Source: a virus | Lineage: Duplodnaviria; Heunggongvirae; Uroviricota; Caudoviricetes | Reading direction: 5' to 3' (one strand) | Length of the DNA: 64,000 bases | Virus record (IMG/VR): IMGVR_UViG_2531839193_000016 | In this document: positions 24,001 to 30,000 of the stretch, one piece after another | How the letters are laid out: the number at the start of each line of letters is the position of its first letter | How positions within the stretch are numbered: position 1 is the first letter of the stretch | Made by a program: the position numbers

Positions 24001-27000
24001 AAGACGATGTCAGACTCCAAGTGGAAAATGCTCTCCGCCATGCCCGGAGAGTTTTCAGTCAAGGTTGCCGGTGGCACGGTGGCATTTATTGAAAGCCCTT
24101 TCCGCCCTTCGGGTAATAAAGGGGGGATCACCTTCGCAGACTGCGTGATCCGCTTCAGCACGAAAGAGCCATTATGGGTAATGCCGGTATCCGGTAATCC
24201 CAGTGCAGAAATCACCAGTTCAGGCGTGACTGGCATCATTCCAATCACATCTGACGTGGCCGGAACGCTCACGCCCTCCGACTGGAATGCACCGGATAAC
24301 GCCGGGCCTTCCGGTAGCACGAATGGCAGCAGTTCAGAGCCGGAATATTACTTTGTTGTCATTCTCGCGGGTCAGTCAAATGGCATGGCCTACGGCGAGG
24401 GGCTGCCGTTACCGGATTCGTTTGACCGCCCGGACCCACGCATTAAGCAACTGGCACGCCGCAGTACGGTAACGCCCAACGGTACGTCGTGTACATACAA
24501 CGACATCATTCCGGCAGACCACTGCCTGCATGATGTTCAGGATATGAGCGGGATAAACCACCCGAAAGCTGATCTGGCAAAAGGCCAGTACGGGACTGTC
24601 GGTCAGGGGTTGCATATTGCCAAAAAACTGCTTCCCTATATCCCACAGAATGCCGGGATACTTCTGGTGCCCTGTTGTCGTGGCGGGTCAGCATTCACCA
24701 CTGGAGCCGACGGCTCATTCAGTGAGGCCAGCGGTGCTTCCGCTGATTCTTCACGCTGGGGGCCGGTAAACCTCTGTATCAGGACCTGGTAAGCCGCACC
24801 AAAGTCGCGCTGGCGAAAAACCCGAAAAACAAACTTCTGGCTGTGGTCTGGATGCAGGGAGAGGCAGACCTTGCCTCAGGAAGCCAGCAGCATAATAGTT
24901 TATTCACGGCCATGGTTCAGCAGTTCAGAACTGACCTGGCTCCGCTTGCTGCGCAGTGCGTGAGTGGAAATGCCACCACGGTGCCGTGGATTTGCGGTGA
25001 TACCACGTATTACTGGAAAAACGCTGGCACCGATAAATATGAGGCAGTATACGGTGGCTACAAAGGCAAGGAAGCACAGAAAATTTTCTTTGTACCGTTC
25101 CTGACGGATGAGAATGGACAGAGCACGCCAACGAATGCTCCGGCGGAAGACCCGGATATTGTGGCTGTCGGGTATTACGGTGCAGCATCCCGAACCCAGG
25201 GCAGTTTTGTTTCGACACAGCGTGACAGCCATTTCAGCTCATGGGCACGCAGGGGCGTCATTTCAGACCGTCTGGCCTCAGCTATTATGCTCCATGCAGG
25301 GCGCACGGCTGAACTGATGCGCGGGCAGACCGTGACACCACCGGATGAGAAGCCGTCACCTGATACACCATCAAAACCGTCCACGCCACCCGCAGACACC
25401 ACGACGATGAGTACGCTATTTGCTTACCGGGCATCTGAGTCTGAAGGACGGTTGACACCACAGGGTTGGGCTGCCGGAGGTGGCAAGGCTCAAATCGTGG
25501 ATGATGCCGGAGCCAGCGGGGGTAAGGCAATGAAACTGACCAAGGAAACAGGAAGAGCCCCCTGGTACCTTGAGCATGATGCTGGTAATGGTGCGGACCT
25601 GCTGGGTAAAGGTGGTCTTGTCAGTTGTCGTTTTAAACTCGATGGCGCGCTTACGGCTAATCAGTACGCACTGGCGCTGTACTGGCCGGTTTCTGCCCTG
25701 CCGCAAGGGGTTACTCTGGAAGGAAATGCCGGTCATAACCTGCTGGCATCGTTCTACGTACAGAGCGATGCCACAGACCTTAACGTGATGTATCACAAAG
25801 GAAACACGGCGCAGAACACGAAGCTGGGGTCATTCGGCGCATTTAATAACGAATGGCATACGCTGGGCTTCCGTTTTGCCGGTAACAACAGTATTGAGGT
25901 GACGCCGGTCATTGATGGTAAGGACGGGACACCATTCATGCTGTCGCAGTCTCCGGTCGGCACGTTTACGGCAGACAAGTTGCGCGTGACCGATATCACT
26001 AAAAATGCGACTTACCCGGTACTGATTGACAGTATCGTGGTGGAAGTGAATAACGCGTAAGCAGGATAAAAAATGCCGCCGGTAAGGGAAAACAAGAAAC
26101 CGGCGGCAAAAAGATCGTTATATCCAAAGCAAAAAATGCAGTGCACCTTTTTACCTAACAGATATTACCGGTGTCAACACCATGTCAATAATTGGGAGGG
26201 ATAATGACATTTTTACAGCTTATTTTATTGTATTTCTGCACGGCAGTATGTGCGTTATATCTGGTGAGTGGTGGTTATAAGGCCATCAGAAATTATGTTC
26301 GCCGCAAAATTGAGGACGCAGCAGCTGAAAAACTCAGTAAAACAGCGCAGGTAACTCCGCTCCCAAAAGACCCGACCCAGCCCTGATTGCAGGGCTTTAT
26401 TCCCGCATAAGGAGGATATACATGCCAGAAATTAAAGGCACCGTCACTGAAGACCTGGTAAAACAGGCACTGTATTCCGGTGAAGTAAATAAGTTGCTGA
26501 AAGCGCAGGTCCGCAAGGATTTTGAGGCACAAATCGACACTTACGTTGATGAAGTGCTGGCAAAACTTATTGGGCCAGCAGTTGCGGCCAGTGATGCTGA
26601 TAATGAGCCGAAAACCGACGCGCAGCCAGAGCAACCAGACCCGGCTCAGCCCGGAACTGACAGTACCATGATGTAACAATACAAACCGGTGGTGTCCTCT
26701 GCCGGTTTGACACTAATGAAAACATCTTTGCCGCTATCCAGCCATATGTAATCGCTGGATAGTATTTCGTATTCAGAAATATAGCTGCTTATGGAGCAGT
26801 CAATCCTGCTTCCCCATCCGGGCAGGCAAATGAACCGGTATCATTAGTCCGATTCACGCTTTTGTAGAATCGTTCCCAGAATGCTATACAGCTCATTAGC
26901 CTGTTGCTCCATCATTGAGACGGAGGCTATACGGTGCAAAGTGATTTCAGGAGGTGGCACACCTCCATCTTCTTGCTGTGGAGGAAAAACATAAGATTTA

Positions 27001-30000
27001 ATAAAAAAGTTGAAGCATATGAACTCTCCCGCACTCGAACTGTATTTGCAGGCATCTGAATAATCGGAAAAATAATCATTATAGATTTCCGCATTTTCAA
27101 TCATTTTTCGATTTCTCGTCGTTACATGATTGTCCATAGCAGCCTCTTACGCTGGCAATTAACCAATTGACTTCTATAAATTAGTTGATTTGTTTGCTTT
27201 GCGGTATTCAAATGTACAATCATTCAGCACTTATGCGTTACAGCACCGTTTAAAATTAGTGATCAAACTCATAAATTTTCGCTAATGACATTTCGTGTTA
27301 TTTGTTGTATCAATTAAATAAATCAAATCGATCGTTTTTGTCGATCGATTGAGTGATAAAGATATCAACAACAAAGCAGGAGGTTATGCGGCCATGTATC
27401 GAAACATACGGTGCCGACATTGTAACAAGCTACTGGCACGAGCCAGCTTCAGTTATCTGGAAGTTAAATGTCCGCGCTGTAAAACCCTCAATCAAATCAC
27501 ATCTCAGAGCGCCACAGAGCACCCCACATACACAAGGAAATCCTGTCGTGGGGAACAGAAAGCAAGTTACATCCCGTATCATCAGCACGCCTGAACTTAT
27601 TCACTATAACGACAATATCGTCGGTTATGGCTCCCGTGAGTTACGGGTTGAGACAATAAGTTGCTGGCTGGCCCGGCTGGTCGTCGTCAATAAACATTAC
27701 AGCCATCGTTTCGTAAATAATTCCTACCTTCATCTGGGCATATTTTCAGAACGGGAGCTGGTTGGCGTAATGCAATGGGGTTATGCCCTTAATCCAAACA
27801 ATGGTGCACGCGTCGTAACTGGCACGCAGAACCGCGAATATATGGAGCTTAACCGGTTATGGCTGCATGACTGTATGCCGAGAAACTCCGAATCAAGGGC
27901 AATCAGTTACGCGCTCAAACTAATCAGACAACTTTATCCGCAGGTGCAGTGGGTTCAGTCGTTTGCAGATGAGCGTTGTGGCTGTCTTGGTGTCGTGTAC
28001 CAGGCAAGCAATTTTGATTATGTAGGCAGTCATGAAACAACATTCTATGAACTTGATGGCGAGTGGTATCACGAGATTTGCAAGAATGCAATCAAACGAG
28101 GAGGACAGCGAGGTGAACATCTGCGGGCTAATATCGACAGAGCCAGTGTTCATAAATTCCGTCAGTTTCGTTACATCCGGTTTCTGGACAAGAGAGCCAG
28201 AAAACGCCTTAACACAAAGCTATTCAAAGTCCAGCCTTACCCAAAACCACAAACAGTTAAAACTGGTTTGAAAGAGAGTGAATGAACGCTTAAAAACTCA
28301 TTCTAAAACTCAAAAGAAAAGCGCCGATTTAGTATCAAATAAGTTGCGTATCGGTGTTTTTCAGCGGTATCAAATGAAATGCAAATCGGTATCAAAAAAA
28401 TCGCCGCGCTATACCTTTCAAATCAATAAGCGGTATCCACAGACAAACCTGAAGGGAAAGGCATATTTTCAGGCGTTCTGCTCGTCCTTCTCAAAGAGTT
28501 TACTTTTCTGCATTTCCAGGATACTCCCCGTTACTTTATTCGTACCCCTTATAATGGGGTGTTAGCCAGCCAGACCCGGCATGATTACTGCCCCCAGTCG
28601 TCCATGATCCGGGGGGTGATGTCACCGGGTCTGGTGGGGCGCTGGTAACCGCTAATAGGGGTCAGGTCAGGCACTTTTGCCGGGACCGTCTGTAACGTGG
28701 ATGCCGGTACCTGCTCCCCGTGGTTATCTGGTTAACCCATATACAAGGGAGACAGAATGACCGAATCCAGCGATTACGAATCCGTCCAGGTCTTTATCGG
28801 CGTTGATGTCGGTAAAGATACGCATCACGCTGTTGCCATTAATCGTTCAGGTAAACGCCTGTTCGATAAAGCATTACCCAACGACGAAAACAAACTCAGG
28901 TCGCTAATATCTGACCTGAAACAACATGGTCAGATACTGCTGGTTGTTGATCAGCCAGCTACCATCGGTGCGTTACCTGTCGCCGTTGCCCGCTCAGAAG
29001 GAGTCCTTGTCGGATACCTCCCTGGACTGGCCATGCGCCGCATAGCCGACTTACACGCCGGTGAAGCTAAAACTGATGCTCGTGACGCTGCCATCATTGC
29101 CGAAGCTGCCCGTACCCTGCCTCACGCGCTACGCACGCTGAAACTGGCTGACGAGCAAATCGCCGAACTCTCCATGCTCTGCGGCTTCGATGATGATCTT
29201 GCCGCACAGACAACGCAGGCCAGCAACCGTATCCGCGGCCTTCTGACCCAGATACATCCGGCACTGGAGCGCGTTCTCGGTCCGAGACTTGAGCACCCGG
29301 CGGTACTCGATCTTCTCCAGCGATATCCCTCACCAGAAAAACTCGCTTCGCTGGGCTTCGCTGGGTGAGAAGAAGCTGGCAGCCCAGCTCTGCAAACTTG
29401 CGCCTCGTCTGGGTAAACGCCTTGCAGCAGACATAGCTCAGGCACTGGCCGAACAAACCGTCGTCGTTCCCGGCACGAATGCCGCTGCCGTAGTACTGCC
29501 ACGTCTGGCACTCCAGCTCATCACGCTGCGTAAGCAAAGAGACGAGGTGGCGCTTGAGGTAGAACAGCGAGTTCTTGCTCACCCTCTTTACCCGGTCCTG
29601 ACCAGTATGCCCGGAGTCGGTGTCAGGACCGCAGCCAGACTCCTCACCGAGGTCGCCTGCCGCGCCTTCGCCTCTGCCGCACATCTCGCTGCTTATGCTG
29701 GCCTTGCGCCGGTAACTCGGCGATCCGGCTCGTCAATACGCGGTGAGCATCCCTCGCGACGGGGTAATAAAGCTCTCAAACGGGCGTTGTTCCTGTCGGC
29801 CTTCGCCGCGCTCAGGGATCCGCTCTCCAGGGCTTACTACACCCGCAAAATGAGTCAGGGAAAACGACACAATCAGGCGCTTATCGCCCTGGCGAGACGA
29901 CGCTGCGACGTTCTGTTCGCCATGATGCGCGACGGGACTTTTTATACCCCGCAGGGGTTATAACATGCTTGACAACTTAATAGGGGCACCCCCTGGCTAT

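What the first reader, a model, noticed from the sequence alone, without database searches (positions are those of the whole stretch)
26192..27137. Three small unassigned ORFs in the accessory slot upstream of com/mom
A 64-aa single-TM protein and an 84-aa acidic protein lie in tandem with good ribosome-binding sites, and a 97-aa ORF lies on the opposite strand, all between the esterase gene and the com/mom control region. I recognise none of them. A membrane protein paired with an acidic partner in a prophage cargo slot is the layout of many small toxin/antitoxin or exclusion modules, so this is the window's most plausible place for an undescribed function, but the evidence is position only.
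Basis: inference. Interest (0 to 1): 0.45.

Follow-up and report, generated by a model that had tools for sequence, protein, structure and literature searches.

The report
Prophage esterase-cassette small genes plus orphan
The three small genes are real but are not one module: two are the known, uncharacterised DUF1378/DUF826 pair that travels with a phage sialic-acid esterase gene, and the third is a narrow orphan gene in a swappable cargo slot next to the mom promoter.

Summary
They form two separate units.

**Unit 1: ORF A and ORF B.** ORF A is 60 aa from ATG 26204 and is Pfam DUF1378. ORF B is 84 aa with pI 4.2 and is Pfam DUF826. They are the last two genes of an esterase–DUF1378–DUF826 cassette.
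- In 71 of 80 fetched DUF1378 loci the trio is intact. It sits before the holin in Stx/lambdoid phages, or between gin and com/mom in E. coli Mu-like prophages.
- Outside Escherichia and Citrobacter, DUF1378 stands alone. There it is fused to the end of Rz (ATGA overlap) or follows the tail-fibre genes.
- The pair has no toxin, antitoxin or defence-family hits, and DUF1378 is almost absent from plasmids.
- The toxin/antitoxin reading is therefore not supported. Function stays unknown. My best guess, held weakly, is a late-expressed inner-membrane factor tied to the envelope/lysis step.

**Unit 2: ORF C.** ORF C (97 aa, minus strand) is an E. coli/Shigella orphan with one distant relative. It lies in a 574-bp replaceable slot (26711–27284) that carries unrelated genes in sister prophages.

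**Also found.** A conserved small-RNA-like unit lies on the minus strand between the esterase and DUF1378, positionally like PasA.

**Verdict.** Ordinary accessory genes of known but uncharacterised kinds, of modest interest.

The parts
24007..26060 (+). Sialate-O-acetylesterase-like gene (SASA + DUF6645 domains), the first gene of the cassette. In this window it is split into 24007-24792 and 24843-26060 by a 1-base deletion near 24757.
   Evidence: Pfam and PHROG hits. An intact 684-aa copy in JE86-ST05 differs by one extra G. DNA homology to lambdoid nanS-p cassettes spans 24337-26337, at up to 91.6% identity over the esterase part (24337-26083, L079).
26066..26177 (-). Candidate small-RNA unit convergent with the esterase. 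It has -35 TTGACA (26177->26172), an 18-nt spacer, -10-like TAAAAA (26153->26148), an A/U-rich body, a GC hairpin (26107->26075) and a T-run (26074->26066). The RNA would be about 79 nt.
   Evidence: Coordinates and fold at -23.7 kcal/mol. The promoter-like motif is kept in 26 of 29 distinct esterase-linked intergenic variants with unrelated spacers and bodies. Same place and orientation as PasA in E2348/69. Probably the counterpart of the Hfq-bound EcOnc37 in Sakai Sp18. No Rfam match.
26204..26386 (+). DUF1378 family protein, 60 aa (the mechanical ORF starts at TTG 26192). It has an N-terminal transmembrane helix and then a basic tail, K-x-I-R-N-Y-x-R-x-K-I; the predicted topology is N-out/C-in.
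   Evidence: Pfam PF07125 E 9e-32 and phrog_494 E 1e-32. Hydropathy and pI. dN/dS 0.14. Invariant core across contexts.
26422..26676 (+). DUF826 family protein, 84 aa, acidic (pI 4.2). It has one long helix (residues 20-59) and a disordered Pro/Glu/Asp-rich tail.
   Evidence: Pfam PF05696 E 6e-16 and phrog_311 E 5e-28. AlphaFold2 pLDDT is about 90 for residues 20-50. dN/dS 0.085. 41% identical to the lambdoid copy.
26682..26710 (.). Hairpin (AAACCGG...CCGGTTT) after DUF826. It is the right end of the DNA shared by all Mu-like cassette variants and is terminator-like on both strands.
   Evidence: Fold at -16.7 and -10.5 kcal/mol. Homology between slot types ends at 26705-26710.
26711..27284 (.). 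Replaceable cargo slot, 574 bp, with GC of about 0.34-0.45 in 300-bp windows over it. It holds ORF C here and unrelated genes in sister prophages.
   Evidence: blastn borders. Composition. Cargo types among Mu-like loci are ORF C 18, a 154-aa gene 19, a 66-aa gene plus a remnant of the 154-aa gene 14, and the 66-aa gene alone 1. ORF C and the 154-aa protein are unrelated.
26844..27137 (-). ORF C, a 97-aa acidic orphan protein (pI 4.7) with no TM segment or signal. RefSeq calls an 86-aa version from 27104 (WP_000571916.1).
   Evidence: Only its own cluster is found in 5.8e9 and 1.84e9 protein libraries. No Pfam, PHROG, PADLOC, NCBIfam or PDB hit. dN/dS 0.36, p = 0.006. The CI5 homologue has no Met at the RefSeq start. 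There is a distant 98-aa relative. The AF2 model has low confidence, pLDDT 63.6.
26733..26763 (-). Hairpin (CTATCCAGC...GCTGGATAG) downstream of ORF C, inside the slot.
   Evidence: Fold at -16.6 kcal/mol on the minus strand.
27285..27393 (+). Conserved com/mom upstream region, about 95% identical among prophages with different slot cargo. It contains the GATC palindrome at 27326-27350, which is shared with phage Mu.
   Evidence: blastn. Alignment with Mu and Sp18. In Mu a divergent promoter, momP2, overlaps Pmom (PMC3378877).
27394..28285 (+). com (27394-27594) and mom (27590-28285). The prophage right end is at 28413.
   Evidence: Pfam Zn_ribbon_Com and Mom. tblastn. Homology to five other insertion sites ends at 28413.

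Best explanation
The interval holds two independent accessory units at the right end of a Mu-like prophage.

**Unit 1 (26204-26676).**
- Shown: it is the tail of a three-gene cassette, NanS-p-like sialate O-acetylesterase, then DUF1378, then DUF826. The cassette is shared, and still recombining, between Stx/lambdoid phages (where it lies between Q/stx and the holin) and E. coli Mu-like prophages (between gin and com/mom).
- Shown for the hydrophobic stretch, inferred for orientation: DUF1378 is a 60-aa single-pass inner-membrane protein. Its short N-terminus would face the periplasm and its conserved basic tail the cytoplasm.
- Shown at moderate model confidence: DUF826 is an acidic cytoplasmic protein built around one long helix.
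- Inferred: both are made with the late genes of the phage.
- Inferred, about 0.25: DUF1378 acts at the inner membrane on the envelope/lysis step, as a membrane-tethered cytoplasmic factor in the manner of an antiholin or releasin, with DUF826 as an Escherichia/Citrobacter-lineage add-on that docks on or modulates it. It is not a toxin/antitoxin pair.

**Unit 2 (26711-27284).**
- Shown: it is a replaceable cargo slot. Here it holds ORF C, a 97-aa acidic orphan protein read leftwards, away from the mom promoter.
- Inferred: ORF C is a prophage- or early-expressed cargo protein that acts on phage-host or phage-phage conflict.
For: **Identity.** Pfam and PHROG hits are far above threshold, and RefSeq annotation agrees.

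**Cassette.**
- 71 of 80 DUF1378 loci have the esterase directly upstream and DUF826 directly downstream: 31 Mu-like, 39 lambdoid, 1 other.
- Citrobacter lambdoid prophages carry the same trio.
- The literature notes these DUFs between nanS-p and S.
- DNA homology between lambdoid and Mu-like copies runs from 24337 to 26337, reaching 91.6% over the esterase part (24337-26083, L079).

**Selection.** dN/dS is 0.14 and 0.085.

**Late/lysis link.**
- In Lonsdalea (L010) and in an IMG/VR viral contig of unnamed host (L085), the DUF1378 ATG overlaps the Rz stop, after holin-endolysin-Rz/Rz1.
- In lambdoid phages the pair lies directly before the holin.
- The membrane-proximal motif LVSGGYK-x-I[RK]-x-Y is kept in solo copies that lack DUF826.

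**Slot.**
- The borders are sharp at 26710 and 27285, with alternative cargo in sister prophages.
- Mu has no such DNA.

**ORF C as a gene.**
Against: - No experiment or homology ties DUF1378 or DUF826 to lysis.
- In this window the endolysin-like gene is about 26 kb away, at 15-275.
- In Mu-like prophages of Enterobacter, Cedecea and Mixta, solo DUF1378 follows the tail-fibre genes, not lysis genes. Adjacency to lysis genes may therefore only reflect classical moron insertion sites.
- The conserved tail of solo DUF1378 implies that its partner is not DUF826.
- ORF C's selection signal is modest: dN/dS 0.36, and its identity is similar to that of its upstream non-coding DNA.
- The ORF C structure model is weak and matches nothing.
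- No convincing promoter was found for ORF C.
Confidence: 0.55

Rival explanations
1. DUF1378 is a prophage-expressed superinfection-exclusion protein. It would be a small inner-membrane protein that blocks genome entry of incoming phages, in the manner of HK97 gp15 or T4 Imm. DUF826 would be an accessory.
For: - It is a small single-pass membrane protein in prophage accessory positions: after Rz, after the tail-fibre genes, and between Q and S.
- These are classical moron sites (Tree et al.).
- It is under strong purifying selection inside prophages.
- The comparison with HK97 gp15 and T4 Imm is from my own knowledge.
Against: - It has no similarity to any exclusion or defence family.
- In two phages its ATG overlaps the Rz stop. 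That argues for late lytic expression rather than an autonomous lysogen-expressed moron.
- No own plus-strand promoter was found upstream.
Confidence: 0.2
2. The two small proteins are helpers of the esterase. They would tether, fold or release the signal-less NanS-p-like enzyme at the membrane so that it reaches extracellular O-acetylated sialic acids.
For: - Synteny with the esterase is tight on two unrelated phage backbones, in 71 of 80 loci.
- The junction between esterase and DUF1378 recombines as one block.
Against: - DUF1378 occurs without any esterase in six loci and in Enterobacter.
- Esterase prophages such as E2348/69 PP2 lack both small genes.
- In this window the esterase is frameshifted while both small genes are intact.
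- DUF826 differs far more between backbones (41% identity) than the DNA shared by the lambdoid and Mu-like copies, which runs through the esterase and ends inside DUF1378.
Confidence: 0.12
3. This is the first reader's idea: a toxin/antitoxin pair. One form is type II, with a membrane toxin and an acidic antitoxin. The other is type I, with the DUF1378 peptide as toxin, controlled by the small RNA-like unit upstream.
For: - There are two adjacent co-oriented small genes, one hydrophobic and one acidic.
- A divergent small-RNA-like unit lies 27 nt upstream of the DUF1378 ATG. This recalls tisB/istR-1 or zorO/orzO, a comparison from my own knowledge.
Against: - There are no toxin, antitoxin or defence-model hits.
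- DUF826 has no DNA-binding fold.
- DUF1378 stands alone in six loci.
- DUF1378 is on only 15 of 72,556 plasmids.
- The small-RNA-like unit goes with the esterase end. It is present in E2348/69 without DUF1378 and absent from solo DUF1378 loci.
Confidence: 0.06
4. ORF C is not a gene. It would be a chance open frame in AT-rich slot DNA whose real content is regulatory, for example leader or terminator sequences for leftward transcription from the mom region.
For: - It is an orphan with no family.
- Its identity to the CI5 copy (85%) is no higher than that of the non-coding DNA upstream of it (87%).
- The bias towards third codon positions is weak: 13/8/17.
- The structure model has low confidence.
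Against: - The frame stays open through 39 substitutions and one in-frame 9-nt indel.
- The synonymous excess has p = 0.006.
- It has a good SD at the right distance.
- A 98-aa protein in another E. coli phage aligns over 80 residues at 29% identity, pairwise E 5e-11.
Confidence: 0.2

Closest known systems
nanS-p region of Stx-converting lambdoid phages (933W L0105 and the small ORFs before the holin S)
   Same: - The gene order is the same: esterase (SASA + DUF6645), DUF1378, DUF826 (PMC10462455).
- The esterase catalytic and C-terminal parts, and the 5' two-thirds of DUF1378, share up to 87% DNA identity when matched as a single stretch; the esterase part alone reaches 91.6%.
   Different: - Here the cassette sits in a Mu-like prophage between gin and com/mom, far from any holin.
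- The esterase N-terminal domain is not DUF1737.
- DUF826 is only 41% identical.
- In this window the esterase is frameshifted.
Prophage Sp18 of E. coli O157:H7 Sakai (Mu-like; ECs_4993 to ECs_4998)
   Same: The layout is the same: invertase, esterase, DUF1378, DUF826, a minus-strand gene, com, mom.
   Different: - The minus-strand gene is an unrelated 154-aa protein (phrog_26524), not ORF C.
- The cassette DNA is only 70-79% identical, whereas com/mom is 95% identical.
Phage Mu releasin gp25 (DUF2730) and antiholins (recalled from Chamblee et al. 2022; not read here)
   Same: The predicted topology of DUF1378 is the same, an N-terminal membrane anchor with a cytoplasmic tail. It is associated with lysis cassettes in several phages.
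   Different: - There is no sequence relation.
- DUF1378 is about half the size.
- There is no functional test.
- In this prophage it is not near the lysis genes.
PasA/PasC and EcOnc small RNAs of EPEC/EHEC prophages (comparison for the minus-strand unit at 26066-26177)
   Same: - It is convergent with the esterase and lies upstream of the next late gene ('> < >').
- It has TTGACA plus an A-rich -10-like element, a length of about 80 nt, and an intrinsic terminator.
- EcOnc37 is an Hfq-bound peak in Sp18.
   Different: - No sequence similarity to PasA is evident.
- There is no Rfam hit.
- Equating it with EcOnc37 depends on an unverified coordinate offset between genome versions.
Phage Mu right end (gin-com-mom)
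   Same: gin, com, mom and the GATC palindrome upstream of com are conserved.
   Different: - Mu has 94 bp between gin and com, where this prophage has about 3.5 kb of accessory DNA.
- The GATC palindrome lies 44-68 nt from the com ATG here, and much farther in Mu.

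Membership tests
Pfam DUF1378 (PF07125) / phrog_494 | Score above the curated cut-off over the whole ~59-residue model | tested here: met
   109.4 bits against a cut-off of 25, with residues 1-58 aligned to model positions 1-58 of 59. phrog_494 E 1.3e-32.
Pfam DUF826 (PF05696) / phrog_311 | Score above the curated cut-off | tested here: met
   58.7 bits against a cut-off of 25, covering residues 1-57. phrog_311 E 4.9e-28 over residues 1-83.
nanS-p esterase cassette of lambdoid/Stx phages | Order and strand: SASA/DUF6645 esterase, then DUF1378, then DUF826 | tested here: met
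   Window. 71 of 80 loci.
nanS-p esterase cassette of lambdoid/Stx phages | Location between the Q antiterminator/stx and the holin S of a lambdoid phage | tested here: not met
   Here the cassette lies between gin and com/mom of a Mu-like prophage.
Type II toxin-antitoxin module | One partner belongs to a known toxin family, or the other carries a DNA-binding antitoxin fold | tested here: not met
   No Pfam, NCBIfam or PADLOC hit. The DUF826 model is a single long helix plus a disordered tail.
Type II toxin-antitoxin module | Obligate pairing and autonomous spread (plasmids, chromosomes) | tested here: not met
   DUF1378 is alone in six loci. It is on 15 of 72,556 plasmids. It was found only in phage or prophage regions, on the same strand as the neighbouring late genes.
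Type I toxin-antitoxin module | An antisense or divergent small RNA that pairs with the toxin mRNA and co-occurs with the toxin gene | tested here: inconclusive
   A small-RNA-like unit lies upstream. However, it occurs without DUF1378 in E2348/69 and is missing from solo DUF1378 loci. Pairing with the mRNA was not tested.
Holin / antiholin / releasin class of lysis proteins | Small membrane protein encoded in the lysis cassette | tested here: inconclusive
   Met in lambdoid and solo loci. Not met in this window, where the lysozyme-like gene is at 15-275, nor in Enterobacter, Cedecea or Mixta prophages.
Holin / antiholin / releasin class of lysis proteins | Effect on lysis timing or endolysin release | not testable with these tools
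   Needs genetics.
Known anti-phage defence systems (PADLOC-DB) | Match to a defence protein model | tested here: not met
   No hits for ORF A, ORF C, the 154-aa and 66-aa slot genes, or the esterase. There was one chance-level hit for ORF B, PbeC at E 0.0076.
Pas/EcOnc prophage small RNAs (for 26066-26177, minus strand) | Convergent with the esterase gene, with an intrinsic terminator and a size of about 80 nt | tested here: met
Pas/EcOnc prophage small RNAs (for 26066-26177, minus strand) | Sequence or structure homology to a described member, or evidence of expression | tested here: inconclusive
   No Rfam hit. The PasA sequence differs. The EcOnc37 peak fits only if old Sakai coordinates are shifted by +128.

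The most novel reading that the evidence does not exclude
DUF1378, with DUF826 in Escherichia and Citrobacter phages, is an undescribed class of membrane-tethered regulator of phage lysis or release. It would be carried by hundreds of Stx-converting phages directly upstream of the holin, and copied into Mu-like prophages together with the esterase whose release depends on lysis. If so, it would help set the timing of Shiga-toxin and esterase release.
Probability: 0.2. Interest if true: 0.6.

Novelty: new member of a known kind. Interest (0 to 1): 0.3.

Why it matters
**The pair.** DUF1378 and DUF826 are among the most widely carried uncharacterised genes of Stx-converting phages. By tblastn, 309 phage records hold DUF1378.
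- They are kept under purifying selection on two unrelated phage backbones.
- DUF1378 alone is fused to the spanin gene in other genera.
- These facts give a concrete, cheap experiment: delete the genes and measure lysis timing and release of Stx and esterase.

**The slot.** The replaceable segment next to the mom promoter marks a place in E. coli Mu-like prophages where short orphan genes are exchanged. It may be worth screening for defence or counter-defence activity.

**Limits.** None of this changes current understanding yet. As it stands, this is ordinary accessory DNA of known but unexplained kinds.

Tried and rejected
**ORF C.**
- The structure route led nowhere. The AF2 model has pLDDT 63.6, and Foldseek against PDB and BFVD gave nothing at E <= 0.001.
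- Sequence searches also found no family.
  - Searches of the 5.8e9- and 1.84e9-protein libraries found only its own cluster.
  - PDB, PADLOC and NCBIfam gave nothing.
  - Extending the family with an alignment found only the one known distant branch.

**The pair.**
- PDB profile searches with DUF826 and DUF1378 alignments gave only chance hits.
- A fold search on the DUF826 model was not run, because a single helix would match anything.
- Literature on ybcW and ynfN gave no functional data. I guessed from memory that these are the K-12 relatives and did not verify it. The only finding was that Hha induces ybcW.
- DNA-level and tblastn searches for DUF826 in the phage collection found only two records.

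**Regulatory signals.**
- I looked for a leftward promoter for ORF C in 27138-27384 by eye and by scan and found nothing convincing. The momP2-type drive therefore remains an inference from Mu.
- Rfam found nothing in 25900-27500.
- I could not verify the coordinate offset between Sakai genome versions from the literature.

**Rejected readings.**
- A lipoprotein or signal-peptide reading of DUF1378: it has no lipobox and no positively charged n-region.
- The 128-aa antisense ORF at 26293-26679: the plus-strand frames carry the Pfam hits and the low dN/dS.

Full report
**1. Observation**

The mechanical ORF list shows the three frames at the stated coordinates:
- 26192-26386 + (64 aa, TTG);
- 26422-26676 + (84 aa);
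- 26844-27137 - (97 aa).

The sequence shows ribosome-binding sites for all three:
- GGGAGGG at 26194-26200, before ATG 26204;
- AGGAGG at 26410-26415, before ATG 26422;
- AAGAGG at 27148->27143, before ATG 27137.

ORF A is best read from ATG 26204 (60 aa). The Pfam model and RefSeq both start there. ORF A has one strongly hydrophobic N-terminal stretch and a basic remainder (pI 9.3). ORF B has pI 4.24, and ORF C has pI 4.74 with no hydrophobic segment.

The left neighbour is a SASA + DUF6645 esterase. The right neighbours are com (ATG 27394) and mom.

**2. Context**

The window up to 28413 is the late half of a Mu-like prophage. It runs tail genes, invertible tail-fibre segment, gin invertase (23349-23921), esterase, the three ORFs, com and mom.
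- Homology to five other insertion sites ends at 28413.
- Phage Mu itself has only 94 bp between gin and com, so the roughly 3.5 kb here is accessory DNA.
- An almost identical prophage occurs in at least 14 complete E. coli genomes.
- Against one of them, this window has a 1-base deletion near 24757. It splits the esterase into 24007-24792 and 24843-26060, while the small genes are unchanged.

**3. ORF A and ORF B are DUF1378 and DUF826, and they belong to the esterase cassette**

Family membership:
- ORF A matches Pfam PF07125 at 109 bits (cut-off 25) and phrog_494.
- ORF B matches PF05696 at 59 bits and phrog_311.
- RefSeq annotates them in the same way.
- A paper on Stx2a phages notes ORFs with these two domains between nanS-p and the holin S (PMC10462455).

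I fetched DUF1378- and DUF826-encoding loci from IMG/VR, GTDB genomes, RefSeq E. coli and phage records. I classified them with a tblastn panel. Of the 80 DUF1378 loci:
- 71 have the esterase directly upstream and DUF826 directly downstream;
- 39 of those are lambdoid: (Q) - esterase - DUF1378 - DUF826 - class II holin - lysozyme;
- 31 are Mu-like: gin - esterase - DUF1378 - DUF826 - slot - com - mom.

Citrobacter lambdoid prophages have the same trio.

DNA homology between the lambdoid and Mu-like copies begins at 24337, where the catalytic domain starts. The N-terminal domains differ: DUF1737 in the lambdoid copies and an unassigned domain here. Homology ends at 26337, inside DUF1378. It reaches 91.6% over the esterase part (24337-26083, L079) and 87% where a single match runs to 26338. 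DUF826 is only 41% identical between the backbones.

Against a Mu-like prophage with 85.8% DNA identity over 26000-27400, dN/dS is 0.14 for DUF1378 and 0.085 for DUF826. Both are therefore maintained in the Mu-like setting.

**4. DUF1378 can stand alone**

| Locus | Host | Position of solo DUF1378 (49-54 aa) |
|---|---|---|
| L010 | Lonsdalea | ATG overlaps the Rz stop codon, after holin-endolysin-Rz/Rz1 |
| L085 | IMG/VR viral contig, host not named | Same arrangement |
| L008 | Cedecea (Mu-like prophage) | Follows the tail-fibre gene; no tail-fibre-assembly gene was identified, and a Dam-like methylase follows |
| L009 | Mixta (Mu-like prophage) | Follows the tail-fibre-assembly gene |
| L118, L119 | Enterobacter (Mu-like prophage) | Follows the tail-fibre-assembly gene; last called phage gene before host fimbrial genes (L118) |

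The motif LVSGGYK-x-I[RK]-x-Y, with a basic stretch after it, is kept in all of them. So DUF1378 does not need DUF826 or the esterase, and the partner of its tail is probably something else. In the loci fetched here DUF826 was never seen without DUF1378, leaving aside copies cut by a contig end.

**5. What the proteins look like**
- DUF826 is predicted as a short helix (10-17), one long helix (20-59, pLDDT about 90 for residues 20-50) and a disordered Pro/Glu/Asp-rich tail.
- DUF1378 is a single hydrophobic helix plus a basic tail. By the positive-inside rule the tail is cytoplasmic, which is an inference.
- Neither has a relative with a solved structure.

**6. Tests of the toxin/antitoxin and defence idea**
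- Neither protein hits a toxin, antitoxin or defence model in Pfam, NCBIfam or PADLOC.
- DUF826 has no DNA-binding fold.
- DUF1378 occurs alone.
- Only 15 of 72,556 plasmid records encode DUF1378, against 309 phage records.
- The genes were only found on the same strand as the phage late genes around them.

These results argue against an autonomous addiction module. A small-membrane-protein exclusion function cannot be excluded, but translational coupling to Rz in two phages points to late lytic expression.

**7. Most likely mechanism for the pair (inference, about 0.25)**

I propose a late-expressed, membrane-tethered cytoplasmic factor that acts on the envelope/lysis step. The basis is the recurrent position directly before the holin or fused to the end of the spanin gene, together with a topology like that of membrane-tethered lysis regulators. 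DUF826 would be a lineage-specific soluble partner.

Three findings argue against this:
- the position after tail-fibre genes in Mu-like prophages;
- the 26-kb distance from the endolysin-like gene in this window;
- the fact that all these positions are also classical moron sites.

The esterase-helper idea is weakened by three observations:
- solo DUF1378 loci exist;
- some esterase prophages lack the pair (E2348/69 PP2);
- in this window the esterase is frameshifted while the pair is intact.

**8. ORF C and its slot**

Comparison of prophages shows that similarity stops at 26705-26710, just after a hairpin that follows DUF826. It resumes at 27285, 109 bp before the com ATG. The segment between them is replaceable. 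Among the Mu-like loci:

| Cargo | Loci |
|---|---|
| ORF C | 18 |
| An unrelated 154-aa minus-strand gene (phrog_26524; ECs_4996 in Sakai Sp18) | 19 |
| A 66-aa plus-strand gene with a remnant of the 154-aa gene | 14 |
| The 66-aa gene alone | 1 |

(See.) The slot is AT-rich, with GC of about 0.34-0.45 in 300-bp windows over it.

ORF C has no family:
- a search of 5.8 billion proteins returned 14 clusters, and every one with a source name is from E. coli or Shigella;
- an exhaustive HMMER pass over 1.84 billion representatives returned only its own cluster;
- Pfam, PHROG, PADLOC, NCBIfam and PDB returned nothing.

It is nevertheless probably a gene:
- The frame is open in 18 of 19 loci.
- The 79%-identical CI5 version keeps the frame through 39 substitutions and an in-frame indel.
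- The CI5 version has no Met at the RefSeq start, so the long start with the good SD is right.
- Synonymous changes are in excess (dN/dS 0.36, p = 0.006).
- A 98-aa protein of E. coli phage vB_EcoS-733R5 aligns over 80 residues at 29% identity.

The AlphaFold model is four strands plus a C-terminal helix. It is weak (pLDDT 63.6) and matches nothing.

In Mu, RNA polymerase occupies a divergent promoter, momP2, when the activator C is absent (PMC3378877). The 154-aa alternative cargo starts only 6 nt from the conserved com-upstream block. Leftward transcription of slot cargo from a momP2-like promoter is therefore plausible. However, I found no convincing promoter, and the geometry of the GATC palindrome differs from Mu. 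Function is unknown. A lysogen- or early-expressed conflict protein is the best guess, from position alone.

**9. A by-product: a small-RNA-like unit at 26066-26177 on the minus strand**

It lies between the esterase stop and DUF1378. It has TTGACA, 18 nt, TAAAAA, an A/U-rich body, a 9-bp GC hairpin and a T-run, giving about 79 nt.
- The promoter-like motif is kept in 26 of 29 distinct esterase-linked intergenic variants, although spacers and bodies differ. The terminator is kept wherever my cut allows it to be seen.
- The experimentally verified PasA sRNA of EPEC E2348/69 lies in the same place and orientation, after a related esterase. That prophage has no DUF1378 or DUF826 (preprint 10.64898/2026.05.13.724894).
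- Tree et al. list an Hfq-bound peak with a terminator, EcOnc37, in Sp18 on the minus strand. It coincides with the predicted unit if the old coordinates are shifted by +128. I could not verify that offset.
- Rfam has no match.
- The unit goes with the esterase end, not with DUF1378, so it does not rescue a type I toxin reading.

**10. Comparison and verdict**

The pair are new members of known, uncharacterised families in a known cassette. What has been little noted is that the cassette also sits, under selection, in Mu-like prophages, and that DUF1378 has an independent life next to spanin genes. I did not search the literature for earlier descriptions of these two points. ORF C is an orphan in a replaceable slot.

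Nothing here is categorically new. The interest lies in two testable leads: the possible lysis link for a gene carried by most Stx phages, and the slot as a place to look for conflict genes.

Noticed in passing
window 26066-26177, minus strand: A small-RNA-like unit lies between the esterase and DUF1378. It has TTGACA-N18-TAAAAA, a body of about 79 nt, and a GC hairpin with a T-run. It is conserved in 26 of 29 distinct intergenic variants on lambdoid and Mu-like backbones. Its position matches PasA of E2348/69, and it is probably EcOnc37 of Sakai Sp18. Rfam has no match.
   Followed up: partly
window ~24757 (esterase 24007-26060): A single-base deletion, relative to the intact 684-aa gene of JE86-ST05, splits the esterase into two frames. 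It may be a pseudogene or a sequencing error in a G run. The two small genes downstream are unchanged.
   Followed up: yes
window 24007-24336 against lambdoid loci (e.g. L007 2879-3097): The Mu-like esterase has a different, unassigned N-terminal domain of about 110 residues where lambdoid NanS-p has DUF1737. DNA homology between the two backbones starts exactly at the catalytic domain (24337) and ends inside DUF1378 (26337).
   Followed up: partly
window 27104 against 27137: RefSeq/PGAP starts ORF C at an internal ATG (86 aa, WP_000571916.1). The CI5 homologue has Thr at that position, and the upstream ATG has the better SD. The 97-aa start is therefore more likely.
   Followed up: yes
window 27326-27350 and L111 (phage Mu) 2650-2700: The GATC-containing palindrome of the mom control region is conserved with Mu. 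It lies only 44-68 nt from the com ATG here and considerably farther in Mu, so the promoter geometry must differ. In JE86-ST05 com is frameshifted, whereas it is intact in this window.
   Followed up: partly
window 28757-29963: An IS110-family transposase, split into two overlapping frames (DEDD_Tnp_IS110 and Transposase_20), lies about 340 bp beyond the prophage right end at 28413.
   Followed up: no
L010 6001, L085 6001: In two unrelated phages the DUF1378 start codon overlaps the Rz stop codon (ATGA), directly after holin-endolysin-Rz/Rz1. This suggests translational coupling to the spanin gene.
   Followed up: partly
window 33191-35592 and 38571-62000: A yfdC-like formate/nitrite-transporter gene is followed by a phage integrase and then a second prophage on the minus strand with lambda-like tail genes (J-like tip protein, tail fibre). 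The only distant relative of ORF C lies next to a yfdC gene in phage record ON470608.
   Followed up: no
L120 (E2348/69) 2770-3040, minus strand: There are two tandem small-RNA-like units, each with a TTGACA-type promoter and a terminator, between the esterase and the holin. The esterase-proximal one is not the annotated 85-nt PasA, but it ends where the 236-nt minor PasA form ends.
   Followed up: no
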